A stretch of 64,000 nucleotides of DNA from a phage: sequence record PZ445511.1, one strand, 5' to 3'. Both the position numbers and the translations under genes were made by a program. This document shows, in pieces, positions 4,151 through 56,067 of the stretch (positions within the stretch are counted from its first letter, which is position 1; each line of letters begins with the position of its first letter). The notes under the pieces were generated by a model that saw only the letters and a list, made by a program, of their open reading frames with translations, had not been told where the DNA came from and did not search any database.

Positions 4151-4903
4151 ATGGGAAAAGCACGTCAAAAAAGAGAGAACCGCAATGGTTCAAGAAAGCG
4201 TGGCAACAAGTATGAGAGTAACGTAATTCAAGCAGATTTCTCTGGTGATTACGCCAATCCAGTTGCTAAATCCCTAGTTGGTAAAAACCGTGAGCAAAAA
4301 TCATATATCAATATGATCAAGAACAACACAGTGACTGTGGGTATTGGTGAACCAGGTACTGGTAAAACCTTTATTCCGTCCGTTCTTGCAGCTCAGGAAC
4401 TCGTAGACATTCACTCAGATATTGAGCAAGTGATCCTCGTGCGTCCGAACGAACCTCTAGGTAAATCTCTTGGTATGCTCCCAGGTGATCTGGCAGAAAA
4501 GCTAGAGCCTTGGTTGGAACCAATAGCCGATGGCATGAAATGGGCAATCGGTGATCACGCCTACAAAGGATATGTCGAACGTCAGAAAATTAAATTCCTG
4601 GCTATCGAACATGCCCGTGGCCGAACTTTCAACAACTCCTATGTAATTGTCGATGAAGCTCAGAATATCTCCGTTGAAGCAATGATCTGTCTCCTGACTC
4701 GTGTAGGACAAGATTGTCGTTTAATTATCTGTGGGGATATAGCGCAGAAAGACATCAAGGGTGATTCAGGTCTAGCACTTCTTATGGAAGTCTATGAGAA
4801 GTATGAAAACTCTCCTTTCTCTATGATCGAACTGATCGACAACGTTCGCTCACCAGAGTCTAAAGCATTCTACGATATCTTTAAGGATATGGGGAAGGTG
4901 TAA
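4151..4903 (+). CDS. phoH: PhoH-like ATPase
   Basis: Walker A GEPGTGKT; ORF track starts at GTG 4142, ATG 4151 has TAGGAG RBS. Confidence 0.8.
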   Translation: MGKARQKRENRNGSRKRGNKYESNVIQADFSGDYANPVAKSLVGKNREQKSYINMIKNNTVTVGIGEPGTGKTFIPSVLAAQELVDIHSDIEQVILVRPNEPLGKSLGMLPGDLAEKLEPWLEPIADGMKWAIGDHAYKGYVERQKIKFLAIEHARGRTFNNSYVIVDEAQNISVEAMICLLTRVGQDCRLIICGDIAQKDIKGDSGLALLMEVYEKYENSPFSMIELIDNVRSPESKAFYDIFKDMGKV

Positions 4904-4904
4904 T

Positions 4905-5147
4905 ATGGGAAACGTCGTACATCTGCACCGCAAAACTAAGATTCACCGTACTTCACTGAGTGCTGCTAATATGATTACACGTAAGGAAGGGGAAGAAAGT
5001 CCTAAGACTACCCTAGCGTGGAAAATTGTAGCCTCTAATCCAAATCGGCCTTTTAATTATAACGAATTGAGTACTTCTATAGACATTCTTATGGCTAAGG
5101 AAATACGACAGAAACTAACTGATATGACCGATAAACTTAAATGGTAA
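4905..5147 (+). CDS. hypothetical protein
   Basis: 80 aa ORF immediately after phoH. Confidence 0.45.
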   Translation: MGNVVHLHRKTKIHRTSLSAANMITRKEGEESPKTTLAWKIVASNPNRPFNYNELSTSIDILMAKEIRQKLTDMTDKLKW

Positions 5148-5270: not shown

Positions 5271-7601
5271 ATGAGCCATCGCATCGAAAAAGTAATTAAA
5301 CGTGACGGTACTGTTCAGGACTTTGCTCCTGAAAAACTCAATGATTGGGCTGCATGGGCATGTAAAGATACTGACGTAAGTTGGTCTGCCGTAGTTATGG
5401 CTGCCCTGAAAAATCTACCCAAAGGTGTTGTAGACTCCGATACACTCCAAGATGTGTTAATTAAAGCCGCTGAAGGTCTTATCAAAGACAACCCAGCATA
5501 TGATACTGTAGCAAAGGAATTACGTCTTGCGCAGATGCGTAAACGCCTATATGATTCCTTTGAACCTCCTTCTCTGCGTTTCTTCCACGATCATATGATT
5601 CGTGTTGGCGCCTGGGAAGACATGAGTGCATGGATTAGCGATGATCAGTTTGATGCTCTGAATCAAGTTATTGATCATGATCGCGATCGTTTATTCACCA
5701 GTGGTGGACTGAAACAGTTCTTCGACAAGTATTCCCGTCGTAATATTGCAACTGGTGAAATTTATGAAACCCCGCAGTTTGCCTACATGGGTATGGCAAT
5801 GGCGATGTTATCTCAACCTAACTGGACAATTCTCGATGCAATCGACCTCTACAACGCAATGTCACTCCATAAAATCAACGTGCCGACTCCACCTCTCGTG
5901 GGTCTTAGGAGCAGCGACCGCGGTTTTGCTTCTTGTTGTCTTGTTGATAGTACTGATACCCTCGATTCAATCGACACAGCCGAGCACATCGTCTTCAAAA
6001 TGGTCGCAGCCAGAGCGGGAATCGGGTATCATCTTGAAAGCCGATCAATTGCTGATCCGGTGCGAAATGGGGCATTCCCGCATTCCGGAAAACTGCCATA
6101 TTATCGACACATTGACCGATCAGTAAAAGCTAACACTCAGCAAACCCGTGGTGGTTCTGCTACTGTGTCTTACCCATACTTCGATCCTGAAATCATTCAG
6201 TTGATGCAGGTTAAGCAGCAACGTGCTACAGACGAGAATAAAATCGATAAGATGGATTACTCTCTGAGCTTTAACAACCTTCTGTTAAAACGTTACCTGA
6301 AAAATGAAGATATTACGCTAATGTCCTACTTCTACGCACCAGAAGTTCATGAAGCGTTTTATGGCGAAGATGAGGCTAAGTTTGAAGAAATCTACGTGGC
6401 AGCGGAGAAACGTGTGGCATCTCTTACAAAGATCGACCACGAAGGAAAAACAATTCCAGCAGCTCCTAGAATCTCTGCAAAAGAAATCCTAGATACTTGG
6501 TTACGTATCCGTATGGAAACAGGGCGTATGTATGCTCATCACATTGGTGAATCTAACCGTCATGGTAACTTCCTTGACCCGATTCGTATGACCAACCTTT
6601 GTGTTGAAATTACTCAGCCAACCCGTCCATTCCATCACATTACGGAGCTGTATAAGACCCAAGATCAGTTAGACGATATGCGTCCAGAAGATATTGGTGA
6701 AGTATCTCTGTGTAACTTAGGTGGTGTTGTACTAGGTCGTATGGAATCTCTGGCTGAATGGGAGAAAACTTGCTACATTCTTCTGAAATTCGTTGATACA
6801 ATCATCGAGATTCAGGATTACCCATTCCCAACTATGGAGTACACGGCTAAGAAACGTCGTAACGTTGGTATTGGTCTGATGAACGCAGCAGGTGCAATGG
6901 CAGCCGAAGGTTTGGCTTACGAAGGTGTTGAAGCCCGTAACTGGATTCACCGTGAAGCTGAAAAGCTGTCCTACTTCCTACATAAAGCCTCTGTACGTCT
7001 GGCTAAAGAACAAGGTGCATGTGACTGGTTTAATCGTACTAAACCATCCAAAGGAACTCTGGTAATCGACACGTACAAGAAAACTGTTGATGAACTGGTA
7101 ACTGTAGGTCTAGAAATGGATTGGGAATCTCTGCGTGCAGATATTCTGAAATATGGTATGCGCAACTCTGTTCTGACTGCTCAGATGCCGGGTGAAAGTT
7201 CCTCTGTACTGCTAGGTGTTACTAACTCTATCGAGCCGCCTCGTAAGATTGTATCTATCAAGGGTAGTGCAGTTAATAAAGTAATTGCAATTGCTCCAGG
7301 TGCAACCGATTGGGATACATTAATGAGTTATAAACTGGCTTATGATGTAGATCGTATCGAGTGGATCAAATGGGTAGCAACCATGCAGAAATTCTTCAGT
7401 CAGTCTATCAGTACGAATATGTACTATGACTACACCAAGTTTGAGAATGAAATCATTCCTGGTCCAGTAGTAGTTCGTGATTTCATGACTGCTGTTAAGT
7501 ACGGCTGGAAAACTTGGTACTACGCTAACTTCAACACTGAAAATGGTGGTGGAGCTGGTGAAGAAGCAGCAGGTTGTGCATCAGGTGGTTGTAACCTATA
7601 A
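5271..7601 (+). CDS. nrdA: ribonucleotide reductase class Ia large subunit
   Basis: ORF 5211..7601 (796 aa); ATP-cone-like N-terminus, C-terminal Cys pair; ATG 5271 has AAGGA RBS, 5211 has none. Confidence 0.85.
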   Translation: MSHRIEKVIKRDGTVQDFAPEKLNDWAAWACKDTDVSWSAVVMAALKNLPKGVVDSDTLQDVLIKAAEGLIKDNPAYDTVAKELRLAQMRKRLYDSFEPPSLRFFHDHMIRVGAWEDMSAWISDDQFDALNQVIDHDRDRLFTSGGLKQFFDKYSRRNIATGEIYETPQFAYMGMAMAMLSQPNWTILDAIDLYNAMSLHKINVPTPPLVGLRSSDRGFASCCLVDSTDTLDSIDTAEHIVFKMVAARAGIGYHLESRSIADPVRNGAFPHSGKLPYYRHIDRSVKANTQQTRGGSATVSYPYFDPEIIQLMQVKQQRATDENKIDKMDYSLSFNNLLLKRYLKNEDITLMSYFYAPEVHEAFYGEDEAKFEEIYVAAEKRVASLTKIDHEGKTIPAAPRISAKEILDTWLRIRMETGRMYAHHIGESNRHGNFLDPIRMTNLCVEITQPTRPFHHITELYKTQDQLDDMRPEDIGEVSLCNLGGVVLGRMESLAEWEKTCYILLKFVDTIIEIQDYPFPTMEYTAKKRRNVGIGLMNAAGAMAAEGLAYEGVEARNWIHREAEKLSYFLHKASVRLAKEQGACDWFNRTKPSKGTLVIDTYKKTVDELVTVGLEMDWESLRADILKYGMRNSVLTAQMPGESSSVLLGVTNSIEPPRKIVSIKGSAVNKVIAIAPGATDWDTLMSYKLAYDVDRIEWIKWVATMQKFFSQSISTNMYYDYTKFENEIIPGPVVVRDFMTAVKYGWKTWYYANFNTENGGGAGEEAAGCASGGCNL

Positions 7602-7609
7602 TAAAAACA

Positions 7610-7636
7610 AGGAGATCTTCGGGTCTCCTTTTTTCT
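7610..7636 (+). terminator. rho-independent terminator (UUCG tetraloop)
   Basis: stem aggagatc/ggtctcct, loop ttcg, followed by TTTTTT. Confidence 0.65.
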
Positions 7637-7708: not shown

Positions 7709-8854
7709 ATGACTACTTTACTAAACCTGAATTGGGATCATACTAACGCTGACCTTTTCCTGGGCGATTCTCTTGGTATCGCAGATTACGTTCGTGTAGC
7801 ACATCCTGAACTTGAGCGTCTAGCACTTCTGCAACGTTCTCAATTTTGGACTGAAACTGAAATCAGTCTGGAAGCTGATAAGAAACAATGGCCAAACCTC
7901 CCGCGTGATATCCAGGAAATTACTCTCCTGAACTTAGCATGGCAAACTCAAACAGATTCTTTCATTAGTCGTGCTCCTGAGGCAGCTATTATGCCACTTG
8001 TAAGCCGTCCTGAATTGGAAGGTATGCTCAAGCAGTGGAGCTACTTCGAAGATCTACATAGCCGTGCGTATAGTAACATTATTCGTAACGTTCTGACTGA
8101 CCCAGCAGAATTTATTGATTCTGTAACTAAAAACCAAGAAGCATTTGCACGTATCGCAGATTCTGTTGAACTGTTTGATGAATTGTATCTGTTAGGTCAG
8201 TATTTCCTTGCAGTACGTGATCATCAGGGTGATAATACTTATCCAGAAACTGAGTTCCCTGAAGTTAAACGTGAAACTCAGGCTAAACTGTTAGACGCTT
8301 ACTTTGCAATCTACGGTCTGGAAGCAATGCAGTTCTACGCATCCTTTGCATGTACCTTTGCTCTAGCAGAGAACGATATTCTGCAAGGTATTGCTAAGAA
8401 CCTGCAATTAATCGCTAAAGATGAAGCTCTACATACTCAAATGTCTAAAGCTATCATCCAGATTATGTTCCAGCAGTTTGATAAAGATCTGGTAGATGAA
8501 GCATTAGCTAAAGCACCAGCACAACTCCTAAAAACTCTGAAAACTGAGATTGAATGGGGCCACTTTATCTTTAAAGGCCGCAGTCTGATTGGTTTGAACG
8601 CAGAATTGCTTGAAGAATACCTTTACTTTGTAGGACGTAACGCATTTATGCACATTGGTGTAGAATGGCCAAGCCACTTACCTGTAATTACTAAGAACCC
8701 TATTCCGTGGATTATGAACTGGTTGGATACTACATCTTTACAACCTGCTCCACAAGAGATTCAGATTGGTGCAGCGTACCGTGTAGGTCAAGTAACTGAA
8801 ACCTCTGCTGATACTCTGAAAGATCTTGGCAACGAATTTGAGGATATGTTCTAA
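7709..8854 (+). CDS. nrdB: ribonucleotide reductase class Ia small subunit
   Basis: 381 aa; ferritin-like di-iron protein pattern; adjacent to nrdA. Confidence 0.8.
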   Translation: MTTLLNLNWDHTNADLFLGDSLGIADYVRVAHPELERLALLQRSQFWTETEISLEADKKQWPNLPRDIQEITLLNLAWQTQTDSFISRAPEAAIMPLVSRPELEGMLKQWSYFEDLHSRAYSNIIRNVLTDPAEFIDSVTKNQEAFARIADSVELFDELYLLGQYFLAVRDHQGDNTYPETEFPEVKRETQAKLLDAYFAIYGLEAMQFYASFACTFALAENDILQGIAKNLQLIAKDEALHTQMSKAIIQIMFQQFDKDLVDEALAKAPAQLLKTLKTEIEWGHFIFKGRSLIGLNAELLEEYLYFVGRNAFMHIGVEWPSHLPVITKNPIPWIMNWLDTTSLQPAPQEIQIGAAYRVGQVTETSADTLKDLGNEFEDMF

Positions 8855-9384
8855 TGATAGCAGCAATCTATGCAACTGGGCCGAATGGGGAGTTCGGCCT
8901 CAATGGTAAGCTCCCCTGGGGTTCTTTCAAAGAAGAACTAGATATCTTCTATGCTACATTGGATTCTCTGGCACCTGACAATATTATTGTAGGAGCAGGA
9001 ACTTGGTTAGCATTCCCTGAGACTCTGCAAAAAAGAATACTAGGAGATTCTGACCTATTTATTTATGCAAATAGACCACTACCGAACTCTATAAGATCAG
9101 CTACACGCATAAGCAACATTGGATACCGTCTGCCTGATTTTCTCAAGGAAGAGGTAACTGTAGTATTAGGGGGAGCAACTCTGCTTCTTGAAATGTATGT
9201 CAAAAATCATCTAGATATGGCGTATATCTCTACTGTTACTTCAGCCACACCATTATCTGCTGATGTACATCTGCATCATCATATTACTTTAACTAATTCA
9301 ATGGCAACTAGAATGGACTATGTGGCAGGACAGAATGCAGATAAAACGCTTTCATTCTTACAAGAATTGGTGATATTTAAATGA
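8854..9384 (+). CDS. frd: dihydrofolate reductase-like protein
   Basis: 176 aa; N-terminal IAAI..G..G.LPW motif typical of DHFR; sits between nrdB and thyA. Confidence 0.55.
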
Positions 9385-10235
9385 AGCAATATATTGAAAC
9401 TGGAAAACGTATTCTTGAAGAGGGTGTATGGGTAACGAATCCTAGAACAGGGGTTCGTTGCCTAACCATTATTGATGCAGACTTTACCTTTAACGTAGGA
9501 GCAGGAGAACTGCCGCTAGTAACTACTCGTAAAGCATTTGCTAAACAAGCAATAATGGAAATGATCGGATATCTACGTGGGTACGACTCAGCAGCACAAT
9601 TCCGCACTATTGGTGTTAATACATGGAATGCTAATGCAAATGAAAATATTGCCTGGCTAGGTAATCCATTCCGTAAAGGCGAGGATGATATGGGACGAGT
9701 CTATGGTGTTCAAGGACGTCATTGGACTAATTCTGATGGTATGGTATTTGATCAGTTAGCCAAAGTCTACCATAATTTGAAAAGAGGGATTGACGATCGT
9801 GGAGAAATTTTAACTTTTTGGAACCCTGGGGAATTTCGTAAAGGATGCCTACGTCCGTGTATGCATACCCATCAATTCTCTATTTTAGGTGATACACTAT
9901 ACCTAAACTCTTTCCAGAGGTCTAATGATTTCTTGCTGGGCCAAGTATTTAATATGGTGCAATGCTATGCACTTCTAGCTATTATGGCACAGATTACAGG
10001 TCTTAAGCCAGGTATTGCTCGTCAAAAGATTATTAATCTTCATATCTATGAAGATCAGTATAATGTTCTGATGGAGCACAAGCAATTCGATCGTGAACCT
10101 TTTGCACCTCCTACTTTAGAAATCAATCCAAATATTAGAACTTTGGATGATGTATTAACGTGGGTAAGTAAGGATGATTTTACTGTTCGTGGCTATGAAC
10201 ACCATCCTGCTATTGCATATCCATTTACGGTGTAA
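9381..10235 (+). CDS. thyA: thymidylate synthase
   Basis: 284 aa; N-terminus MKQY..G; catalytic region [11 protein letters not shown] resembles ThyA active-site Cys motif. Confidence 0.85.
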
Positions 10236-10238
10236 CAT

Positions 10239-10592
10239 ATGTTAATTATACTATTATTTGTCATATTCTTTCTAAAACATTTTATGGCCGATTATCCACT
10301 CCAAACACCATATATGCTAAGAAAGACGCATAAAATAGGGTGGAAACTTCCATTATTAACCCATTCGCTAGTACATGCTGGATTAACATTTGCAATTCTA
10401 ATCCTATTCACATCACCAGGAATGTCTATAGCTTTAGCTATTATGGAATTAATTCTACACTTTATTATAGATTATTGGAAAGCACAACGCTGTAAATACG
10501 CTATAAGCGATGCTAAGTTTTGGATAGCTTTAGGATTTGATCAGTTACTGCATTATCTGACATACGCCCTAATAATCTTGATTATAATCTAA
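10239..10592 (+). CDS. hypothetical membrane protein
   Basis: 117 aa, multiple hydrophobic segments. Confidence 0.5.
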   Translation: MLIILLFVIFFLKHFMADYPLQTPYMLRKTHKIGWKLPLLTHSLVHAGLTFAILILFTSPGMSIALAIMELILHFIIDYWKAQRCKYAISDAKFWIALGFDQLLHYLTYALIILIII

Positions 10593-48524: not shown

Positions 48525-49406
48525 ATGTATAACTTTAAAGATAAACTAAGACAAAATGCTGGTAAAGGAAAAGCTAAAGAGAACAATAATATTCCTAGTG
48601 CTAAAATATTATCTTTTCCTGAACTAACACAGGAAGAAAAAGATAAACTAGCATTTATGTTCGATGCACTTATAGGATTAAGTGGACGCCTATATTCCAC
48701 TCTTAGTATTAATGAGAAACGTCTAGTAGAGATGTTCTGCAAACGTTATCAAGTTACTTCAAAAGGTAACTCTTATAAAGAAGGTGAAAAAGCATTCACA
48801 GTCTTAAAAATCAGTGCGTATGCACATCGTTTCTTAGTTTATGGATTACAGATGGAATACTTCACCCTCCCACCATTTAAATCATTCCATATCTTTGAAG
48901 ATGAACGAATGAATATTGATGATCTTTATGGAGATACGTACAAATATTCAGGAAGCCCATTCCATGATGCATTAAGAAGCTACCCTACTAGTTACCTACC
49001 AGTTAGAGCATCACAAGGCAAAGCTAGCATCTTTGCTGTATACTCAGGATCTAAAGCATCTGATCTAGAAACTTATATATTTAAAGAGCGTAAATCTGCA
49101 ATTCCAGATGAAGCATTATATAATAATCCACTTCTTCCAGAAGAACCGGAGAAAATTGATGTAACTCCCCCAATCCCATCCGAATCTCAATATTTAGTCT
49201 ATGAAAAACAAGTTAAGTTGTCTCTAGACATTGGGTTGGTTACACCGCTTGCTGCAGCATTCATAAATAAGTATCTAGAAATTCCTGACGAGTTCCATGC
49301 ACGTTATAACACGAATATTCAGATCACAGATGAACTAGTTGCATTAGCAAAAGATACACCTACTGACACTGAGGCGTATCAAAAAGCATACCAAGAGTTA
49401 CTGTAA
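48525..49406 (+). CDS. hypothetical protein
   Basis: 293 aa; last gene before the repeat region. Confidence 0.6.
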   Translation: MYNFKDKLRQNAGKGKAKENNNIPSAKILSFPELTQEEKDKLAFMFDALIGLSGRLYSTLSINEKRLVEMFCKRYQVTSKGNSYKEGEKAFTVLKISAYAHRFLVYGLQMEYFTLPPFKSFHIFEDERMNIDDLYGDTYKYSGSPFHDALRSYPTSYLPVRASQGKASIFAVYSGSKASDLETYIFKERKSAIPDEALYNNPLLPEEPEKIDVTPPIPSESQYLVYEKQVKLSLDIGLVTPLAAAFINKYLEIPDEFHARYNTNIQITDELVALAKDTPTDTEAYQKAYQELL

Positions 49407-49789
49407 GATCCTGCAAGTCTCGGTGCACAATACCTGTACCGAGACTCAAATACAAACTCTCGTTGACAGATAACTAAATGTATGTTATCATAACTCTATG
49501 AGTTAATAAAATTAACCATTTAGAGTTGCCACACAGAAGGTGTGGTGGTTCAGGAATCTTAAATTACTGACTTGTAGCGTAGGTTACGGAGCGACAGGAC
49601 AAGTCAACAGGTAATTTAATAAAGATTACTAGAAACATCACGAGACCTTCTGGCGGGGGCAAAGCTCTATATGAGAACCCTGGGGGGATCTTATACTTAT
49701 ATAAAAACTAATACTGTTGAATAGATAAATTAACGTTCAAGATGATACACTCGGTTGCCGCTCATCTGCTAGGATGGCACAACACTTTC

Positions 49790-50110
49790 TTCTAGACTCC
49801 TAAGTTTCTAGGAAAACTCTCGTCAACTCAGGCGGTTTTCATTGTTCCTAGAAACTCTAGCAATAGGCGGTTAATACAGGGCGGTTATAGGGAGGGCGGT
49901 TATTTCTAGGAGTCATTTTTTGAAAACACATTTCTGGAGATTGCTATCGGATTTGCACATTATGTTTCTAGAAATTTATGGTCGGATTTGCACAATTGCC
50001 TAAGTTTTTAGGAACATATAATCTCCCGAAAATAGCAGCATTATTTCGGGCCGAAGGCCCATGATTGCCTGAGTTTTTAGAGCCACAGGAATTTTCACTT
50101 GTCAAGCTAT
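49790..50110 (+). repeat. short direct repeats (GGCGGTT x4; CT[AG]AGTTT[CT]TAG[AG] x5)
   Basis: seen directly in gene-free region upstream of the iteron array. Confidence 0.6.
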
Positions 50111-50546
50111 TTTGCCCCATTTTGCTAATAAAATTTCGCTTTATCTCCCCCAATCTCAATTCTAGCCAAAACATCCCGCATTATCCCCAAAAACGCAGCA
50201 AACCGGTGCTAAAGCACCATCACCGCTGCTCCTTCCGTAGTTACTCCCAAAATCTCATCGGATTCGCACTTCTCCCCAAACTCACACAATCACACACCCT
50301 CCAATCGAAGTCACAAAAATCTTGTCGGATTCGCACACCTTAACACTTGTCGGTTTTGCACATATTCTAGTAAATCCAGCTGGATTGCATCGCAGTTGCG
50401 GATTGCTGGAGTTTTTAGGAAAATTCATTGTCGGATTCGCACACTATAAAAATATTTGCCATCGGATTTGCACACTACCAAAAATTGTCGGATTCGCACA
50501 TGCACGCTGGCACGTAATCCGTGGGGGCAAATGTCGGATTTGCACA
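49947..50546 (+). repeat. iteron-like array: 9 direct copies of 13-bp TCGG(A/T)TT(T/C)GCACA
   Basis: copies start at 49947, 49982, 50258, 50325, 50350, 50431, 50462, 50488, 50534; irregular spacing; no ORF. Confidence 0.85.
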
Positions 50547-50569
50547 AAAGCGCAGGGCAATTTGCCCTG

Positions 50570-50720
50570 CCTGCCGAAATGCGAATGATAATGAGAATGA
50601 TTCTCTTTTGGGAAGTTGAATGATAATGATTCGCATTTGAGAAGTTGAATGCGAATGAGAACAGTTATCATTTGACTACCGGAATACGAATGAGTCGCAT
50701 AATGAGAATGATTTGCATTT
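50570..50720. repeat. AT-rich GAATGA(G/T)AATGA repeat block with partial palindromes
   Basis: gcgaatgataatgagaatgattc, gaatgataatgattcgcattt, cgaatgagtcgcataatgagaatgatttgcattt. Confidence 0.7.
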
Positions 50721-50752
50721 AGAAAGCGAAGTGAGAAACACTGTTATTTAAG

Positions 50753-50761
50753 TTATCCACA
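50753..50761 (+). promoter_or_regulatory. DnaA box (TTATCCACA, perfect)
   Basis: exact 9-mer; two TTATCAACA variants at 50815-50834. Confidence 0.6.
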
Positions 50762-50844
50762 GGTTTATTAACAGCACGATCTGACTTGACAAAATCCTAG
50801 TGATTTTGAGGCGTTATCAACAGACTTATCAACAGGTTATTCTA

Positions 50845-50860
50845 CTGTATATTTATACAG
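50845..50860. repeat. 16-bp palindrome CTGTATATTTATACAG (copy 1)
   Basis: identical copy at 54516-54531. Confidence 0.8.
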
Positions 50861-50893
50861 TATTACTGCGTAGTGAATAACTCTAATATAGCC

Positions 50894-50922
50894 CTAAAAC
50901 GCTCTGTAACTCATTCTAAGCG
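50894..50922 (+). repeat. 29-bp direct repeat CTAAAACGCTCTGTAAC..TTCTAAGCG (copy 1)
   Basis: 27/29 identical to 54943-54971. Confidence 0.8.
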
Positions 50923-51232
50923 ATTTAATTTTGGAGGAGGTATTTTAATAAGGGGAAATTTGAGGAAGGCCAGAAAAAGCGGGGCGCAACTATCGGCCCC
51001 GTTATTATTAGTCTGGTAGTCGATGTGTGATCTTTTCGCTTTCGCCGTAGGAGTCTACCAAATGTTGATAGTAACCATCGTTATCATAAATCACTTTATC
51101 ATAACGCCATCGCTCCTAGAATGAGAATGATTATCAATATCATTGTAAAGCCATTACCAAATCGTAAACGCTGGGAATGTTTCCCAGCGGTATTATTAGA
51201 TTTATGGCTTTGTGTTTTTCGCCACCAGCTAT

Positions 51233-51445
51233 TCACGGTTTTAAATTCTCTATAGTTAATTTTGCGCGAATAGTGATTCCATATAATTCGCCTCCCTTGT
51301 TTCTTACATCAGGTAGCCAGTCCCACAATTCAGGGTATCCGCTTAAAATTCCTAGCGATGCAAGATTAGCAATAAAACCGGCTATAGTAACCGCTTCCAG
51401 TGAAATAGTTACACGATTATTAATAACTAAAGTAAACTTTTTCAT
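51233..51445 (-). CDS. hypothetical protein (cassette gene 8)
   Basis: 70 aa; start overlaps upstream stop (ATGA). Confidence 0.4.
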   Translation of the reverse strand: MKKFTLVINNRVTISLEAVTIAGFIANLASLGILSGYPELWDWLPDVRNKGGELYGITIRAKLTIENLKP

Positions 51446-51786
51446 TGCGACACCTTTCGAAACGCTGTTTCGATACTTTCAGCGGTTGATTGAATATACG
51501 CGCCTTTCATAATCAGGCGCTCTGTACACACTTTGCGGAAAATGTCAATAAATTCATTTTCATTTTCCGCTATTAACGCTTCCCCCATAACCTGAACATC
51601 ACAAGACCCAAAAGTTAAAAATTGAAATGCTAGTTCACGGGCGACAACGGCAGAAATTTTATAATGTGCTTTGCCCTCATAGATATTAACCACGCCTTTA
51701 TAAACTGGTGAAAGCTGATTTAAATAGTTTGCTAATAATGCCGGACGGCAATTAGTTACAAATCGGTTGCCCTCGTAAATTACCAT
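51442..51786 (-). CDS. hypothetical protein (cassette gene 7)
   Basis: 114 aa. Confidence 0.5.
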   Translation of the reverse strand: MVIYEGNRFVTNCRPALLANYLNQLSPVYKGVVNIYEGKAHYKISAVVARELAFQFLTFGSCDVQVMGEALIAENENEFIDIFRKVCTERLIMKGAYIQSTAESIETAFRKVSQ

Positions 51787-51913
51787 CTGCCAACCTCCCT
51801 AGCAAATAGCCAAAACAAATCGAATAAACGCCTAACAGTGCAGGATCACTTTTAAAGTAGGTAGCAATAAAGCCACCAGCAGCACCGAGCAAAATAGAAA
51901 ATAAAGTTTTCAT
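51752..51913 (-). CDS. small membrane protein, 53 aa (cassette gene 6)
   Basis: hand-translated MKTLFSILLGAAGGFIATYF...; below ORF-track cutoff. Confidence 0.35.
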   Translation of the reverse strand: MKTLFSILLGAAGGFIATYFKSDPALLGVYSICFGYLLGRLADGNLRGQPICN

Positions 51914-52122
51914 AATACCCCACGAAACGCAGCGTAAAAGGTGGCAAAGTGTTTAACCGTTTCGGCTACCAAATTGCCGCGCTTGTCAAATTTCTTATCT
52001 GTAACACGGAAAGCGTTTTTGTTGCGTGCTACATATTCGATTTTACAATCTGGACGCTCGAACGTGTTAACATCCACCAGCTTAAAACCTTTGGAACGGG
52101 CAAGGGAAACATTCTTTAACAT
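51910..52122 (-). CDS. hypothetical basic protein (cassette gene 5)
   Basis: 70 aa. Confidence 0.45.
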   Translation of the reverse strand: MLKNVSLARSKGFKLVDVNTFERPDCKIEYVARNKNAFRVTDKKFDKRGNLVAETVKHFATFYAAFRGVL

Positions 52123-52124
52123 TT

Positions 52125-52274
52125 TTATTCCCCTTTACCAGTCATACAGCCTAACAAGTAAGAAAACCCCGCGATACCTGCTCCGATAATAACCACGTGA
52201 ACGCCGAAAGCTATTACAAACAGCGATAAAATAGCGCCCAAGATACTAGCCAGAATAGATCGAAAAATAACCAT
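52125..52274 (-). CDS. small membrane protein, 49 aa (cassette gene 4)
   Basis: hand-translated MVIFRSILASILGAILSLFVIAFGVHVVIIGAGIAGF...; TAGGAGG RBS. Confidence 0.4.
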   Translation of the reverse strand: MVIFRSILASILGAILSLFVIAFGVHVVIIGAGIAGFSYLLGCMTGKGE

Positions 52275-52381
52275 TTTAACGCCTCCTAGAAATTAGGGAA
52301 AATTTTCAGTCCACCGTTTCGGTGTAAAGGCATTATAACAAAAAAGGCCGCCGATTAGGGCGACCTTTACAAAACTTTACA

Positions 52382-52876
52382 TTAGACTATTTCTAATGCT
52401 TCCACACCGAAACAGCGTTTTAGTTCTTTCTGTAAAACGGCATATTCATCCCAACGGGAATTATCAGGAATATAAACAAGCTGTTTTAATCGATTTGCAT
52501 ATAATAACGCCTTGTTACCAATTATTTCCGCGCCACCGTGTTTAATAATTAATTTCATAACGGTATTAATAGGATCGCCGCCATTTACATAAATACCGGA
52601 TTTACTCAATTGATAATGATAAATACTCGCATAAACATTATCATTTTCAATCCATTCCCCTGTTTCTTCATCTTCTTCCCCATCACTACCGAAACGAGAA
52701 GCATTATCATATGCGTGTTCGTTTGCGAAAGCGTCCAGATCACAGCCAGCGGGAACAAAATGTTCCTCCGTCCAGCCTTCCCCACAATAGCCAGTGTGAC
52801 AATCAACTAAAACGATCATATCGTGTTTAGCTTCATTCACACTTTCTAGAGAAAAGCCATATTTTTCTTCTGACAT
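52382..52876 (-). CDS. hypothetical acidic protein (cassette gene 3)
   Basis: 164 aa, Asp/Glu-rich central segment. Confidence 0.55.
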   Translation of the reverse strand: MSEEKYGFSLESVNEAKHDMIVLVDCHTGYCGEGWTEEHFVPAGCDLDAFANEHAYDNASRFGSDGEEDEETGEWIENDNVYASIYHYQLSKSGIYVNGGDPINTVMKLIIKHGGAEIIGNKALLYANRLKQLVYIPDNSRWDEYAVLQKELKRCFGVEALEIV

Positions 52877-52889
52877 AACTAGACTCCTA

Positions 52890-53198
52890 TTAATTAGCAG
52901 GGAAATAAAGAGAATTTGCTACACTGTAAAATACTTTATTTAAGAAAATTACGTCATCACGGACTATTTCATCCATTCCATAATCCAGCAAAGTTTCGTC
53001 TACAAAAATACATAGCCAGCCATAACCACGATCAAAGAAAGCATGATAATTATTAGCGCTTTCTACATGTTCCCATAAAAAGGGACGGCCTTGTTTTTCC
53101 CATATAGGAATATTGCTTTGATCGTCCGAATAATTAACATGGGGGCTATTCGGCATTTTTTCGGCTAATTGCGTCAACATGATTTGATTCAGTTGCAT
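52890..53198 (-). CDS. hypothetical protein (cassette gene 2)
   Basis: 102 aa. Confidence 0.5.
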   Translation of the reverse strand: MQLNQIMLTQLAEKMPNSPHVNYSDDQSNIPIWEKQGRPFLWEHVESANNYHAFFDRGYGWLCIFVDETLLDYGMDEIVRDDVIFLNKVFYSVANSLYFPAN

Positions 53199-53264
53199 AA
53201 TAAGTAGTCTCCTAACAATTAACAGGGAAATAGTAAAGCGGGAAATAATCCCCGCTAGTAATTA

Positions 53265-54266
53265 TTACTCTGTTTCGGCGCTTTGGGTAAAGGTAGAAAT
53301 GTCAATGCCTTTTACCATTTCATCGATCATTTCAGCAATATTGAAACTCTGTACCATTTCCAGCATTGCCGCTTCCATTGCCGCGCCTGCTACCGCTTTC
53401 GCTTTCTGATTAGTCGGGGCGTACTGGTCAACCGCTACGCTTAACAGGTTAGCGATCACTACGCGACCAATCGGAGTATCAATATAACCTTTAATCATAA
53501 ACGGCGCTTTTTTCGCCGCTACTTTTGTGATTTGAGTCAGTGCAATTTTACCCGCTTCCAGTTTTGCAGCATTTACAACAGCGGATTTATTAGCAGCAAC
53601 GATAGAAGATACTTTAGTCATGATATTTCCTTTATTTTCAGTAGTTTGCGCATTTGCGCTTGAAGTTTGAGAGTTTACAGCCTGTTTTGTTACGTTGTCA
53701 ACTGGTTTTAGTGTAAATCCAGCATTTGCAACGTTTGATTCATTCCCATAACATAAATAATCGTCAGGGATCAACATGTTACCGCTAGCGCGTTCAAAAC
53801 ATAATACGCCAGTTGTTTCGATTGCGTCACTATCCGCACCTTTATAGCTTGACGATAATTCCCGCCAGATACTATTTAATAACGATCCGACACTATCCAG
53901 TCTGATATTATTTATTTTTGTTGCTGTTACCTGCTCTTTTTCTTGCACGTTATATAATCGCGCAATGTAACCACTATGAGACTCACTATAACCAACAATG
54001 ATAAAATCAATATCAGTTCCCCGACTATTACGGAAAATGTGATAATCACGGTTGAAAATTACTAGCGCCCTTGTCTGGTCTAGTAATAGCGTGAAATCAT
54101 CGACTGAATAATGAGTATCATTATTATCTAAAATTTCATCGTGAATCTTTTCAACCATTGCCGCCGTATGTTGTACGCTTGCCGCACTACTACCATCTAG
54201 CAGGTTGCGCAAACTACCCTTAATAATAGTGGCGTTTGCTGGTACTGCAATTCTTACAGTAGACAT
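53265..54266 (-). CDS. hypothetical protein (cassette gene 1)
   Basis: 333 aa; Ala/Lys-rich C-terminal third; no recognisable motif. Confidence 0.6.
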   Translation of the reverse strand: MSTVRIAVPANATIIKGSLRNLLDGSSAASVQHTAAMVEKIHDEILDNNDTHYSVDDFTLLLDQTRALVIFNRDYHIFRNSRGTDIDFIIVGYSESHSGYIARLYNVQEKEQVTATKINNIRLDSVGSLLNSIWRELSSSYKGADSDAIETTGVLCFERASGNMLIPDDYLCYGNESNVANAGFTLKPVDNVTKQAVNSQTSSANAQTTENKGNIMTKVSSIVAANKSAVVNAAKLEAGKIALTQITKVAAKKAPFMIKGYIDTPIGRVVIANLLSVAVDQYAPTNQKAKAVAGAAMEAAMLEMVQSFNIAEMIDEMVKGIDISTFTQSAETE

Positions 54267-54454
54267 TTCTTTGTCTCCCTCGTTAATCAGTGAGTGAATG
54301 ATATAGATAATTGTTCGCTAGGGGCAAGAAAAAAGAAAAGGTTTTTTATTCCTTGCCTACTGCCCGTTTTTATGATAATCGCGCGTTTTCTATTTCTAGC
54401 TCTCTGTAAGCGTACACAAGGCTTTATTATAATAAGGGTCACACTGAGAAAACC

Positions 54455-54474
54455 GTCTAGAATCGATTCTAGAC
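54455..54474. promoter_or_regulatory. 20-bp perfect palindrome GTCTAGAATCGATTCTAGAC (operator-like)
   Basis: exact inverted repeat in divergent control region. Confidence 0.7.
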
Positions 54475-54515
54475 GCCTTAAAATCGACATCCTTATAATA
54501 TGCTACCAGTTTACC

Positions 54516-54531
54516 CTGTATATTTATACAG
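54516..54531. repeat. 16-bp palindrome CTGTATATTTATACAG (copy 2)
   Basis: identical to 50845-50860. Confidence 0.8.
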
Positions 54532-54553
54532 TAGGATAACCTGTATATAAGTC

Positions 54554-54611
54554 TGTGGATAAGTCCTCATATAGTCGCCTATTACGTCAAGTTATTTTGT
54601 GCTGTGGATAA
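54554..54611 (-). promoter_or_regulatory. two perfect DnaA boxes (TGTGGATAA at 54554-54562 and 54603-54611)
   Basis: exact reverse-complement 9-mers 41 bp apart; third 8/9 box at 54888-54896. Confidence 0.6.
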
Positions 54612-54942
54612 CTTTGGGGATAAGTTAAATGATAGTGGTTCTCACTTAGCCCGATAGTTTCTCATAGTTATTATTTCCCATTAATTTATGTGTATATTAT
54701 ATATTATGAAATAGTTAGTTGGCTAATAGGATTTTCCGTGATTAATAGTCTGCTAATGATAACGCATGTTTCAATCCACCAGCGTGATTATCATCCTAGC
54801 AACTATTAGAGTGCTAATGACCTGATACACGTCCAGACTTATTTGTCAATGAAAAATAACAGCAGAAAATACTTTTTTGAAAAATCAAGTGGATAACTCA
54901 TTAAATTTCATTTTTGCTTTTTGTATAAGTTATTAACAGGGT

Positions 54943-54971
54943 CTAAAACGCTCTGTAACGCGTTCTAAGCG
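54943..54971 (+). repeat. 29-bp direct repeat (copy 2)
   Basis: 27/29 identical to 50894-50922. Confidence 0.8.
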
Positions 54972-55374
54972 CCTTTGATGAAAAGCTATCCCATCATAAG
55001 GGGAGGTGTCCGAAAACCTCACCACGAGGATTTTAGATTTTGTCAAGTAGGCAAGAGCAGAAATAAATGAAAAAATTACTTGCTAAACTGCTTATTTGTG
55101 TGTTATTCGTGCGCCCGTTTCATTAAATTTAGTGCGCCGCTGGACGTGGTGCGGTGGCGTTTGTCTTTACGTTTCTTTACAAAAATAAGGTTGCGCCCTT
55201 CTCGGTATTCTCCTATTATTTATCACGTAGGGCGGCAATGACGAACTACACGGCGGGGATAACAGCGATTGACAGTCTGTTTGACCTTTCAAAACCCTGC
55301 CATGCTCTTTAAAAATTAGGGAACATCTTAAAGCCTATCGGCGGTAAACTTAGATATTATAAGGAATCGACGAT

Positions 55375-55584
55375 ATGAAACAAACGCTTTTGATCACTGG
55401 CAAGCCTATCAAGTCACTTGATAGCAGAACAAAAAATTTGTTGACAGTAGCGCAACGATCTGTAAAATACAGATTCAAGCAATACAAGAAAGGCAAGCAA
55501 CAAGGGCTGGAAATGGTGTGGCGTAATATAATGATTGATTTATATAACTCATATCAAATAGAAAAAAGTTTAAAAAACGCTTGA
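55375..55584 (+). CDS. hypothetical small basic protein (may be spurious)
   Basis: 69 aa; contains internal TTGACA-16-TAAAAT promoter-like motif. Confidence 0.3.
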   Translation: MKQTLLITGKPIKSLDSRTKNLLTVAQRSVKYRFKQYKKGKQQGLEMVWRNIMIDLYNSYQIEKSLKNA

Positions 55585-55609
55585 CACGCTAGCCGATAGG
55601 TTTTAAGAT
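55581..55609 (+). promoter_or_regulatory. putative promoter (TTGACA-17-TAAGAT)
   Basis: consensus -35 with weaker -10. Confidence 0.35.
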
Positions 55610-55815
55610 GTTCCCTAGTTTTTAAAGAGTGATAACTTGATAAAATTTGACGGTCGGCACTTACCATAATGTGCCCCGCCCCCTAACTGGGATATAGCGG
55701 CCCGCGTGGAGTTCTTTAAATTTATTATATTGGCTAGCGGATTATAATCTAATAGCGTTTCAAAGTATCGAGGCGCTATTGTGGAATAATCCCCCAATAA
55801 ACCGGAGTATTAAAA

Positions 55816-56067
55816 ATGCAAAACGTTATCACCGCACCGAAAGTAGGTCAATCCGTTTTTATTCCTTTCGTTACTAAAACGGATGAATTAACTGGAAAAG
55901 CTGAACGTATTAAAGGTGCGGCGCTTGATCCCTTTGATAAAATTGAAGCGGTATACGCGGAAACGGAACGCAGTAACAACGGCAAGCCAATTTATAACGT
56001 TCGCGTTAAATCTGGCGACGTTGTAAAAATCATTCAGAAAGATGATAAATGGCAAGCTATTAGCTAA
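55816..56067 (+). CDS. hypothetical protein
   Basis: 83 aa. Confidence 0.5.
   Translation: MQNVITAPKVGQSVFIPFVTKTDELTGKAERIKGAALDPFDKIEAVYAETERSNNGKPIYNVRVKSGDVVKIIQKDDKWQAIS

What the first reader, a model, noticed from the sequence alone, without database searches (positions are those of the whole stretch)
51233..54266. Eight-gene minus-strand cassette of unknown proteins inside the pre-early block
Eight tightly packed, overlapping genes run on the strand opposite to every neighbour: 333, 102 and 164 aa proteins, then small membrane proteins of 49 and 53 aa interleaved with a 70 aa basic protein, then 114 and 70 aa proteins. None shows a motif I recognise. They sit in the pre-early-like block next to the A1/A2/dmp-like genes, which in T5 would be the first DNA injected and the place where host-takeover and anti-defence proteins are encoded. 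This is my strongest candidate for an undescribed system.
Basis: partly seen in the sequence, partly recalled or inferred. Interest (0 to 1): 0.7.

Follow-up and report, generated by a model that had tools for sequence, protein, structure and literature searches.

The report
Known T5-type pre-early accessory gene block
The eight opposite-strand genes are real, but they are the already described, highly variable accessory arm of the first-injected DNA of T5-like phages, a set of separate host-takeover genes (one a known DNA nickase) and not a new multi-gene system.

Summary
Eight tightly packed minus-strand ORFs lie at 51233-54266, all under purifying selection (dN/dS 0.06-0.36).

The window is an Epseptimavirus, 98.9% identical to Salmonella phage S147. 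The block is the counterpart of T5's 011-017 pre-early unit, which runs from a conserved promoter towards the injection stop signal.

- **T5 orthologues:** four ORFs match T5 genes. The 333-aa ORF is 011 (DUF7566; toxic in T5). The 49-aa ORF is 013 (two-TM; toxic/lytic). The basic 70-aa ORF is 014. The 114-aa ORF is 015, the published Ung-dependent abasic-site nickase.
- **Accessory cassettes:** the other four (102, 164, 53 and 70 aa) are absent from T5. They recur at the same positions in 67-339 deposited T5-like phages.
- **No shared system:** gene content varies cassette by cassette. An internal terminator splits the unit. The whole T5 counterpart (hegG-017) can be deleted. This looks like a mosaic of independent effectors.
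- **Already described:** the opposite orientation, the hypervariability and the flanking DnaA-box inverted repeats are in Davison's work.
- **Still unknown:** the 164-aa protein gives a confident model with no known structural relative. 011 still resists prediction.

By-products: a likely mis-transferred "nickase" label on the 70-aa protein, a possible nested gene in 011, LexA-box-like palindromes in both repeat arms, and a ninth ORF plus a deleted 017 remnant.

The parts
54298..54327 (-). Sigma-70-like promoter TTGCCC-18-TATCAT about 30 nt upstream of the 333-aa gene. It is homologous to the T5 promoter annotated upstream of gene 011.
   Evidence: Promoter scan and sequence. T5 6377-6565 aligns to window 54384-54187. 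The T5 promoter is annotated at 6411-6489 and described as experimentally characterised in 10.64898/2026.04.02.716235.
53265..54266 (-). 333-aa orthologue of T5 gp011 (Pfam DUF7566). It has a variable N-terminal alpha/beta domain (1-189), a disordered Q/N/S/T linker, and a near-invariant helical C-terminal domain (216-333).
   Evidence: 57% identity to T5.011 overall: N domain 35%, C domain 93%. PF24450 E=1e-141. AF2 model. Found in 511 phage records. dN/dS 0.10-0.51.
53619..53701 (-). Possible internal promoter (TTGACA-18-TAAACT, 53672-53701) followed by an SD-like AAAGGAAA and the invariant Met216 codon (53619-53621). This is a candidate nested start for a ~118-aa C-terminal product.
   Evidence: This is an inference and is not shown.
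52890..53198 (-). 102-aa acidic protein (pI 4.5) in phrog_16959. No T5 counterpart. It is an accessory cassette.
   Evidence: Found in 82 phage records, mostly Epseptimavirus, with distant copies in DaisyDussoix (45%) and Pectobacterium DU_PP_V (29%). dN/dS 0.13.
52382..52876 (-). 164-aa acidic protein (pI 4.55) in phrog_6741. It is absent from T5 but widespread in T5-like phages. The model is confident and has no known structural relative.
52343..52368 (-). Intrinsic terminator (10-bp stem plus T run). It is homologous to the T5 terminator that follows gene 011.
   Evidence: T5 7514-7629 aligns to window 52385-52269. The T5 terminator is annotated at 7534-7559.
52125..52274 (-). 49-aa two-TM membrane protein, orthologue of T5 gp013.
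   Evidence: 62% identity to T5.013 and 86% to the SP15/DaisyDussoix copies. Hydropathy. Found in 353 records. T5 013 is toxic/lytic when expressed.
51910..52122 (-). 70-aa basic protein (pI 10.1), orthologue of T5 gp014. RefSeq and PHROGs label it the Ung-dependent nickase, probably through a numbering mix-up.
   Evidence: 91% identity to T5.014. Labels. UniRef calls the T5 copy 'ORF015'. Found in 437 records.
51752..51913 (-). 53-aa moderately hydrophobic small protein (phrog_19184), inserted between the 014 and 015 orthologues. Absent from T5.
   Evidence: Found in 162 records, several inside annotated left terminal repeats. dN/dS 0.36.
51442..51786 (-). 114-aa orthologue of T5 gp015, the Ung-dependent endonuclease that nicks abasic sites.
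   Evidence: 88% identity to T5.015, with all six lysines conserved. UniRef names AAS77062.1 (T5.015) 'DNA-(apurinic or apyrimidinic site) endonuclease'. Biochemistry is in PMC8201957. Found in 438 records. dN/dS 0.06-0.09.
51233..51445 (-). 70-aa protein with one hydrophobic segment. It is an accessory cassette occupying the place of T5.016.
   Evidence: No similarity to T5.016. Found in 67 records. The exact sequence is present in public collections. dN/dS 0.19.
51099..51236 (-). It is 45 aa with a GTG start, a basic N-terminus and a C-terminal TM helix.
   Evidence: Conserved in S147, SP_Thor and GSW6 with dN/dS 0.33-0.49.
51011..51115 (-). Remnant of the T5.017 homologue. A 100-bp deletion between short direct repeats removed its start codon and first 33 codons.
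   Evidence: tblastn with T5.017. Alignment with S147, where the 64-aa gene is intact.
50974..51001 (-). Terminator-like GC hairpin plus T run that closes the unit. It lies at the position of the T5 terminator annotated at 9275-9296. The pattern scan missed it because the loop is about 10 nt.
   Evidence: Read from the alignment. T5 annotation.
50730..50862 (.). Inverted-repeat arm on the injection-stop side (Davison's IRD'-spacer-IRC'). It carries DnaA boxes and a LexA-box-like palindrome at 50843-50862.
   Evidence: Davison 10.1101/866236.
54514..54647 (.). Partner inverted-repeat arm upstream of the 333-aa gene's promoter (Davison's IRC-spacer-IRD). It carries DnaA boxes and a LexA-box-like palindrome at 54514-54533.
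49999..50987 (.). Non-coding repeat region homologous to the T5 injection stop signal region.
   Evidence: 80% identity to T5 9284-10300. Direct-repeat families. T5 iss is annotated at 9140-10149.

Best explanation
The block is the Epseptimavirus version of the second, divergently transcribed pre-early unit of T5-like phages (T5 genes 011-017). It sits in the terminal-repeat/first-step-transfer DNA, between two DnaA-box inverted repeats. It runs from a conserved sigma-70 promoter towards the injection stop signal.

It is a mosaic. Four anchor genes are conserved (011, 013, 014, 015). Small accessory cassettes are swapped in and out between them (here the 102-, 164-, 53-, 70- and 45-aa ORFs).

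Inferred mode of action: host RNA polymerase transcribes the block in the first minutes, while only this DNA is inside the cell. The products then act separately on the host.
- The 114-aa protein binds Ung and nicks abasic sites in uracil-containing host DNA. This is shown for its T5 orthologue.
- The 333-aa protein disturbs nucleoid organisation. Toxicity is shown for T5 011; the mechanism is unknown.
- The 49-aa two-TM protein perturbs the membrane. Toxicity/lysis is shown for T5 013.
- The acidic 164- and 102-aa proteins and the other small proteins most likely bind and neutralise individual host proteins. This is pure inference.

The block is dispensable in the laboratory and probably pays off only in particular hosts.
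For: - **Genome identity:** 98.9% to S147, an Epseptimavirus.
- **Orthology and order against the T5 LTR:** 011 at 57%, 013 at 62%, 014 at 91%, 015 at 88%. The flanking 018, 007, A2 and A1 are at 80-90%.
- **Shared regulatory DNA with T5:** the promoter region, the post-011 terminator and the iss repeats all align.
- **Terminal-repeat location:** homologues lie inside annotated terminal repeats and occur twice per genome in Stitch, EscoHU1 and others.
- **Mosaic structure:** T5 is 011-012-013-014-015-016-017. SP15 is 011-164-012-013-014-015-017. DaisyDussoix is 011-102-164-012-013-014-015-017. The window is 011-102-164-013-014-53-015-70.
- **Unequal distributions:** 511, 82, 339, 353, 437, 162, 438 and 67 phage records for the eight genes in order.
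- **Cassette junctions:** the same 33-nt intergenic/RBS junction precedes both the 102- and the 164-aa genes (family D6).
- **Real genes:** all are under purifying selection.
- **Literature:** 015 is an Ung-dependent AP nickase and 011 is toxic (PMC8201957). 011, 013 and 015 are toxic, and hegG-017 is deletable with only smaller plaques (10.64898/2026.04.02.716235). The region between Repeat Regions 2 and 3 is hypervariable and bracketed by DnaA-box inverted repeats (10.1101/866236). Pre-early genes form two inversely oriented units (PMC10644984).
Against: - Nothing here measures expression timing or function in this phage. All functional statements are transferred from T5 orthologues at 57-91% identity.
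- The N-terminal domain of the 333-aa protein is only 35% identical to T5 011. Its target could differ.
- Independence of the genes is inferred from presence/absence patterns and from single-gene toxicity in T5. 014 and 015 are co-inherited (437 vs 438 records) and may work together.
- No function can be proposed from homology or fold for six of the ORFs.
- The window holds one copy only, so terminal-repeat status in this genome is inferred from relatives.
Confidence: 0.85

Rival explanations
1. The eight genes form one coherent, previously undescribed multi-component system, for example an anti-defence or toxin module whose parts need each other.
For: The genes are tightly packed, partly overlapping and co-oriented behind one promoter. 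None has a recognisable domain apart from a DUF. They lie in DNA that enters first.
Against: - Components occur independently. Counts range from 67 to 511 records, and four different gene orders appear in four phages.
- A conserved terminator splits the block.
- T5 011, 013 and 015 are each toxic on their own, and 015 needs only host Ung.
- The whole T5 counterpart can be deleted.
- The block has been described before.
Confidence: 0.04
2. The block is an invertible or mobile DNA segment. The ~130-bp inverted repeats at its ends are recombination sites, and its opposite orientation reflects inversion between them.
For: - Inverted-repeat arms bracket the block in the window, T5, SP15, DaisyDussoix, Pantoea AAS21, Klebsiella Shiner and Pectobacterium DU_PP_V.
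- The block is divergent from A1/A2 in the window, T5, SP15, DaisyDussoix, AAS21 and Proteus M4H10_20. It is co-directional in Shiner and DU_PP_V, with the flanking 018-like and A1 genes unchanged in Shiner.
- An ancient inversion between the arms is the simplest account. Davison also notes opposite-strand transcription in Type 2/3 phages.
Against: - No recombinase or transposase is encoded in or next to the block.
- Orientation was the same in all seven E. coli/Salmonella phages examined here, so there is no sign of active switching.
- The arms are conserved better than the genes and carry DnaA boxes. That points to a protein-binding role in the injection stop, not only a recombination substrate.
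- This account explains the orientation, not what the genes do.
Confidence: 0.5
3. 014 and 015 (the 70-aa basic and the 114-aa protein) are a two-protein module. The small basic protein is a DNA-binding or regulatory partner of the nickase.
For: Their distributions are almost identical (437 vs 438 records, with the same host breakdown). They are always adjacent, and in T5 they are separated by one base. Both are highly conserved (dN/dS 0.06-0.11 against Tequintavirus copies). 014 is basic, with pI 10.1.
Against: - T5 015 alone is toxic in an Ung-dependent way and nicks AP sites in vitro without 014.
- 014 alone was not toxic.
- About 160 phages, including this one, have a small ORF inserted between them.
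- Co-inheritance could simply reflect linkage within one subfamily.
Confidence: 0.25
4. Some of the small ORFs (53, 70 and 49 aa) are chance ORFs and not genes.
For: They are very short. S147's annotation omits the 70-aa ORF, and different records use different starts for the 53-aa ORF.
Against: dN/dS is 0.13-0.36 against diverged copies. They are conserved full-length in 67-353 records at 45-100% identity. SD motifs or ATGA coupling precede the starts. PHROG families exist for the 49- and 53-aa proteins.
Confidence: 0.05

Closest known systems
Bacteriophage T5 pre-early genes 011-017 (the rightward transcription unit of the left terminal repeat, between Repeat Regions 2 and 3)
   Same: - Same position between the hdi/007/A2/A1 unit and the injection stop signal.
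- Same divergent orientation.
- Homologous promoter, post-011 terminator, flanking DnaA-box inverted repeats and iss repeats.
- Orthologues of 011, 013, 014 and 015 in the same order.
   Different: - T5.012 and T5.016 are absent, and T5.017 is reduced to a remnant.
- Extra cassettes of 102, 164, 53, 70 and 45 aa are present.
- The N-terminal domain of the 011 orthologue is only 35% identical.
- No hegG homing endonuclease lies next to the block.
T5 gp015, the Ung-dependent abasic-site nickase (Mahata et al. 2021, PMC8201957)
   Same: The 114-aa protein is 88% identical, has the same length, and keeps all six lysines.
   Different: It has not been tested in this phage or in Salmonella. Here it is separated from the 014 orthologue by an inserted 53-aa ORF.
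Salmonella phage S147 and other Epseptimavirus genomes (the same block, annotated as hypothetical proteins)
   Same: 98.9% DNA identity over 51000-54600, with the same genes in the same order.
   Different: The window has a 100-bp deletion that destroys the T5.017 homologue, which is intact in S147. S147's annotation omits the 70-aa gene.
Phage 'moron'/accessory-cassette arrays in early regions (general concept)
   Same: Small genes with their own ribosome-binding sites are inserted at conserved junctions between anchor genes. They are dispensable, vary between close relatives, and are often toxic or host-directed.
   Different: Here the array lies in DNA that enters the cell alone for several minutes, and it is bracketed by conserved DnaA-box inverted repeats.

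Membership tests
T5-type pre-early 011-017 transcription unit | Lies between the A2/A1/dmp unit and the injection stop signal | tested here: met
   Order in the window is 018-like, iss repeats, block, 007, A2, A1, dmp. This matches the T5 LTR in mirror image.
T5-type pre-early 011-017 transcription unit | Transcribed divergently from the A1/A2 unit, from a promoter upstream of 011 | tested here: met
   The orientation is opposite. The promoter-like TTGCCC-18-TATCAT is homologous to the annotated T5 promoter. Promoter activity itself was not measured.
T5-type pre-early 011-017 transcription unit | Bracketed by the IRC-spacer-IRD / IRD'-spacer-IRC' inverted repeats carrying DnaA boxes | tested here: met
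   The arms lie at about 50730-50860 and 54516-54647. All three exact TTATCCACA sites in the 64-kb window lie in them.
T5-type pre-early 011-017 transcription unit | Contains orthologues of T5 011, 013, 014 and 015 in that order | tested here: met
   tblastn gives 57%, 62%, 91% and 88% identity, collinear.
T5-type pre-early 011-017 transcription unit | Part of the direct terminal repeat (present at both genome ends) | tested here: inconclusive
   The window holds one copy, as in a collapsed assembly like S147. Close homologues occur twice per genome inside annotated terminal repeats in Stitch and EscoHU1 and in chee24 and Spc35.
T5-type pre-early 011-017 transcription unit | Expressed during first-step transfer, before the rest of the genome enters | not testable with these tools
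   This needs early-infection RNA-seq or proteomics. For the Tequintavirus Bas33, pre-early transcripts and ten pre-early proteins were detected (PMC13250531).
T5 gp015 Ung-dependent AP-site nickase | Sequence orthology to T5.015 (AAS77062.1, 114 aa) | tested here: met
   88% identity over 114/114 residues, with all six Lys conserved. The UniRef name for T5.015 is 'DNA-(apurinic or apyrimidinic site) endonuclease'.
T5 gp015 Ung-dependent AP-site nickase | Binds host Ung and cleaves abasic sites; toxicity abolished in an ung mutant | not testable with these tools
   Shown only for T5 gp015 (PMC8201957).
Pfam DUF7566 (PF24450) | Full-length match above the gathering score | tested here: met
   472.7 bits against a cut-off of 27, covering residues 1-333.
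DNA N-6-adenine methyltransferase (the UniRef/GenBank label on many 011 homologues) | Methyltransferase domain and catalytic (D/N/S)PP(Y/F/W) motif | tested here: not met
   No methyltransferase family was found in Pfam or NCBIfam. No motif IV or motif I pattern is present in the window protein or in T5.011. No PDB relative was found by profile or by fold. The label appears in phiLLS and STG2 records and in UniRef names.
Single multi-gene system (obligate co-functioning set) | Components co-occur across genomes | tested here: not met
   Record counts are 511, 82, 339, 353, 437, 162, 438 and 67. Four different gene orders appear in four phages.
Known anti-phage defence proteins (PADLOC) | Match to any defence-system protein model | tested here: not met
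   No hit for any of the eight proteins at E<=0.1.

The most novel reading that the evidence does not exclude
At least one of the genes that T5 lacks is a previously unrecognised inhibitor of a specific host defence or DNA-repair protein. The best candidate is the acidic 164-aa protein, alone or with the acidic 102-aa protein. It is confidently folded yet has no structural relative outside Demerecviridae, and it is delivered in the first DNA to enter the cell.
Probability: 0.3. Interest if true: 0.55.

Novelty: already known. Interest (0 to 1): 0.25.

Why it matters
As a discovery it matters little. The block is the known variable arm of the T5-type pre-early region, in a genome nearly identical to deposited ones.

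Its practical value is as a map:
- It separates conserved anchors (011, 013, 014, 015) from swappable cassettes (102, 164, 53, 70 and 45 aa).
- It flags a probable annotation error that RefSeq and PHROGs are propagating. The nickase label sits on the 70-aa protein, not the 114-aa one.
- It picks out the 164-aa protein and the two-part 011 protein as the best targets for finding how T5-like phages disarm their hosts in the first minutes.

Several classical T5 pre-early functions still have no assigned gene, including restriction insensitivity, RecBCD protection and avoidance of Dam/Dcm methylation. Comparing this restriction-sensitive genus with Tequintavirus in this block narrows the candidates: 012, 016 and 017 are missing or broken here.

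Tried and rejected
- **Family scans:** Pfam, NCBIfam and PADLOC on all eight proteins gave only DUF7566. PHROGs gave family membership but no function, apart from the disputed nickase label.
- **Profile searches:** profiles of both families against PDB sequences found nothing.
- **AFDB50:** the fold library was not available.
- **102-aa protein:** the homologue search returned only two clusters, too few for a profile or a model.
- **RNA families:** the Rfam scan of 49400-55900 found nothing.
- **70-aa ORF versus T5.016:** I tested whether the ORF at 51233-51445 is a diverged T5.016, and found no similarity.
- **Nickase identity:** I tried to settle which T5 protein is Mahata's '015' from their supplement, but it is not held. 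I settled it indirectly through locus tags and UniRef names.
- **Davison 2015 review (PMC4743489):** not held.
- **Rejected reading:** I considered and rejected the 'DNA N-6-adenine methyltransferase' label for 011.

Full report

Yes. The ORF list gives eight minus-strand ORFs at exactly the stated coordinates and sizes. Plus-strand genes lie on both sides. GC skew is negative only across about 51000-54500.

Spacing runs from -35 to +107 nt, with three ATGA-type overlaps. Six of the eight starts are preceded by a clear Shine-Dalgarno motif.

I compared each ORF codon by codon with diverged copies in other phages. dN/dS is 0.06-0.36 for all eight, so they are genuine protein-coding genes.

The physical descriptions mostly hold:
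- The 49-aa protein is very hydrophobic.
- The 70-aa protein at 51910-52122 has pI 10.1.
- The 53-aa protein is only moderately hydrophobic.

**2. What genome and what block?**

The region is 98.9% identical to Salmonella phage S147 (Demerecviridae, Epseptimavirus), and 459 phage records match it.

In the annotated T5 left terminal repeat, genes dmp-A1-A2-007-hdi-009-hegG run one way. Genes 011-017 run the other way, from their own promoter towards the injection stop signal.

The window is the mirror image of that map. The order is 018-like gene, iss-like repeats (49999-50987, 80% identical to T5 9284-10300), the block, then 007, A2, A1 and dmp.

Close homologues of the block's genes lie inside annotated terminal repeats. 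They occur twice per genome in Stitch, EscoHU1, chee24 and Spc35. The block is therefore the T5-type second pre-early transcription unit.

**3. Gene by gene**

| Window ORF | T5 counterpart | Identity | Notes |
|---|---|---|---|
| 333 aa | T5.011 | 57% | see below |
| 102 aa | none | - | accessory cassette |
| 164 aa | none | - | accessory cassette |
| 49 aa | T5.013 | 62% | 86% to Tequintavirus SP15 |
| basic 70 aa | T5.014 | 91% | |
| 53 aa | none | - | inserted between 014 and 015 |
| 114 aa | T5.015 | 88% | all six lysines kept |
| 70 aa (51233-51445) | none | - | unrelated to T5.016 |

The 333-aa protein is not uniformly similar to T5.011. The N domain is 35% identical, the linker 63% and the C domain 93%.

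The four ORFs without a T5 counterpart are not unique. Their families occur in 82, 339, 162 and 67 deposited phage genomes at the same positions, several inside annotated left terminal repeats.

[quoted passage not shown] This is probably the 164-aa family, because My1, Shivani and chee24 all appear among its relatives.

**4. Architecture**

- **Promoter.** A promoter-like TTGCCC-18-TATCAT at 54298-54327 is homologous to the T5 promoter annotated upstream of 011.
- **Internal terminator.** The T5 terminator that follows 011 is conserved, but here it lies after the 164-aa gene (52343-52368). T5 7514-7629 maps to window 52385-52269, and T5 7902-8300 maps to 52276-51908. The 102/164 pair is therefore an insertion upstream of a conserved terminator, and T5.012 is missing.
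- **Repeated junction.** The same 33-nt junction precedes both inserted genes (family D6).
- **Downstream end.** Next comes a remnant of the T5.017 homologue. A 100-bp deletion between short direct repeats, relative to S147, removed its start and 33 codons. A GC hairpin plus T run at 50974-51001 then closes the unit.

**5. Why the opposite strand?**

The block is bracketed by a ~130-bp inverted repeat at about 50730-50860 and 54516-54647. Matching arms bracket the block in T5, SP15, DaisyDussoix, Pantoea AAS21, Klebsiella Shiner and Pectobacterium DU_PP_V.

In Shiner and DU_PP_V the block is co-directional with A2/A1. In Shiner the flanking 018-like and A1 genes keep their orientation. The block has therefore been inverted in place during the family's history.

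This is not new. Davison named the arms IRC-spacer-IRD and IRD'-spacer-IRC' and catalogued their DnaA boxes. He noted that the coding region between them is hypervariable and is transcribed from the other strand in Type 2/3 phages. The BF23 paper also states that pre-early genes form two inversely oriented units.

**6. One system or many genes?**

Four phages show four different gene orders:

| Phage | Gene order in the block |
|---|---|
| T5 | 011-012-013-014-015-016-017 |
| SP15 | 011-164-012-013-014-015-017 |
| DaisyDussoix | 011-102-164-012-013-014-015-017 |
| Window | 011-102-164-013-014-53-015-70(-45) |

Record counts for the eight genes range from 67 to 511. Only 014 and 015 track each other (437 vs 438 records).

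In T5, single genes 011, 013 and 015 are each toxic alone, and 015 needs only host Ung. A T5 mutant lacking hegG-017 is viable with smaller plaques.

I conclude that the block is an array of independently acting accessory effectors. The 014-015 pair may be an exception.

**7. How it most likely works**

Shown for T5 orthologues:
- gp015 binds Ung and nicks the abasic sites Ung makes in dUMP-containing DNA. This arrests replication and division.
- gp011 disturbs nucleoid organisation and segregation.
- gp013 causes lysis-like loss of cell integrity.

Inferred for this phage: the same activities are delivered during the pause after first-step transfer.

For the acidic 164- and 102-aa proteins and the small hydrophobic proteins, I can only infer that they bind individual host proteins or the membrane.

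Homology and fold searches gave nothing further:
- Pfam finds only DUF7566. NCBIfam and PADLOC find nothing.
- The 333-aa model has a confident N-domain (1-189), a disordered linker (190-235) and a low-confidence helical C-domain. It gives only generic helical hits.
- PDB profile searches are empty.

This agrees with the statement in 10.64898/2026.04.02.716235 that 011 'resists functional predictions'.

**8. An annotation conflict**

RefSeq and PHROGs put 'endonuclease nicking abasic sites generated by host uracil glycosylase Ung' on the 70-aa protein, which has locus tag T5.014.

Mahata et al. used T5.0xx locus tags. Their list of unknown genes omits 001, 004, 006 and 010, which are dmp, A1, A2 and hegG in NC_005859. 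In that numbering T5.015 is the 114-aa protein.

UniRef names that protein 'DNA-(apurinic or apyrimidinic site) endonuclease'. It calls the 70-aa protein 'ORF015', which is another T5 record's numbering. I therefore assign the nickase to the 114-aa ORF at 51442-51786 with a confidence of about 0.85. Mahata's supplement was not available to settle it.

The 'DNA N-6-adenine methyltransferase' name on many 011 homologues is also unsupported. No methyltransferase domain or motif is present.

**9. Things seen along the way**

- **Possible nested gene in 011.** A TTGACA-18-TAAACT site sits inside the 333-aa gene at 53672-53701. It lies exactly where T5/window DNA homology resumes. It is conserved in six E. 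coli/Salmonella phages despite divergent N-domains. An SD-like motif and the invariant Met216 follow it. An SD-like motif plus ATG occurs at the same place in four more genera. This suggests a nested C-terminal product. It would also fit the report that wild-type 011 could not be cloned while a recoded copy could.
- **LexA-box-like palindromes.** Each inverted-repeat arm carries a palindrome close to the E. coli LexA box consensus as I recall it. TACTGTATATTTATACAGTA at 50843-50862 has one mismatch, and the copy at 54514-54533 has three. These are the only two such sites in 64 kb, against 0.01 expected. The palindrome is conserved across genera. Davison's text does not mention LexA or SOS, and no held paper links them to T5.
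- **Genes missing here.** Tequintavirus genes 012, 016 and an intact 017 are missing from this Epseptimavirus. This is of interest because Tequintavirus resists restriction-modification and Epseptimavirus does not.

**10. Verdict**

It is wrong about novelty and about the genes forming a system. The block is already known as a kind and nearly identical to deposited sequence, and its individual genes remain mostly uncharacterised.

Noticed in passing
window 50843-50862 and 54514-54533: Each inverted-repeat arm flanking the block contains a palindrome close to the E. coli LexA (SOS) box consensus. TACTGTATATTTATACAGTA has 1 mismatch; the second copy has 3. These are the only two such sites in the 64-kb window (0.01 expected). 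The palindrome is conserved in T5, SP15, DaisyDussoix, Shiner (both arms), AAS21 and DU_PP_V. Davison's description of these repeats mentions DnaA boxes but not LexA, and no held paper links LexA boxes to T5.
   Followed up: partly
window 53619-53701 (minus strand), inside the 333-aa gene: A conserved sigma-70-like site, an SD-like AAAGGAAA and the invariant Met216 sit at the start of the near-invariant C-terminal domain. The SD-like motif plus ATG is present in ten loci from at least five genera. This suggests that 011 encodes a nested ~118-aa product. It may explain why wild-type T5 011 could not be cloned.
   Followed up: partly
window 51910-52122 versus 51442-51786; T5 locus tags T5.014 and T5.015: RefSeq and PHROGs attach the Ung-dependent nickase name to the 70-aa protein. 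Locus-tag numbering and UniRef point to the 114-aa protein. The mix-up probably comes from 'ORF015' in another T5 record.
   Followed up: yes
window 51011-51236: A conserved 45-aa ORF (GTG start, C-terminal TM) follows the eighth gene. The T5.017 homologue after it has lost its start and 33 codons through a 100-bp deletion between short direct repeats, relative to S147.
   Followed up: yes
L006 (Klebsiella phage Shiner) 2608-6042; L009 (Pectobacterium phage DU_PP_V) 4942-9677: In these genera the homologous block lies between the same kind of inverted-repeat arms. Here it is co-directional with A2/A1, so it is inverted relative to T5 and the window. Davison mentions opposite-strand transcription in these phage types.
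   Followed up: yes
window 53265-54266 and homologues (P0078 and others): Many UniRef/GenBank entries homologues 'DNA N-6-adenine methyltransferase'. No methyltransferase domain or catalytic motif is present, so the name looks like a propagated error.
   Followed up: yes
alignment A1 (relatives of the 164-aa protein), columns 70-95: Some relatives (P0071, P0074, P0075, P0077) carry a CPEC...CxDC zinc-ribbon-like insertion where the window protein has an acidic loop (SDGEEDEETGE).
   Followed up: no
window-wide comparison with the T5 LTR: T5.012 and T5.016 have no counterpart anywhere in the window, and T5.017 is only a remnant. The three Tequintaviruses examined all keep 012 and 017, while 016 is intact only in T5. 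Tequintavirus resists restriction-modification and Epseptimavirus does not (PMC10644984), so 012 and 017 are candidates worth testing for that difference.
   Followed up: no
window 55305-55342 and 55592-55629: A 38-nt inverted repeat (95% complementary) brackets the small plus-strand ORF at 55375-55584. By position this ORF should be the hdi (T5.008) counterpart. T5 has an equivalent pair at 4669-4707 and 4951-4989.
   Followed up: no
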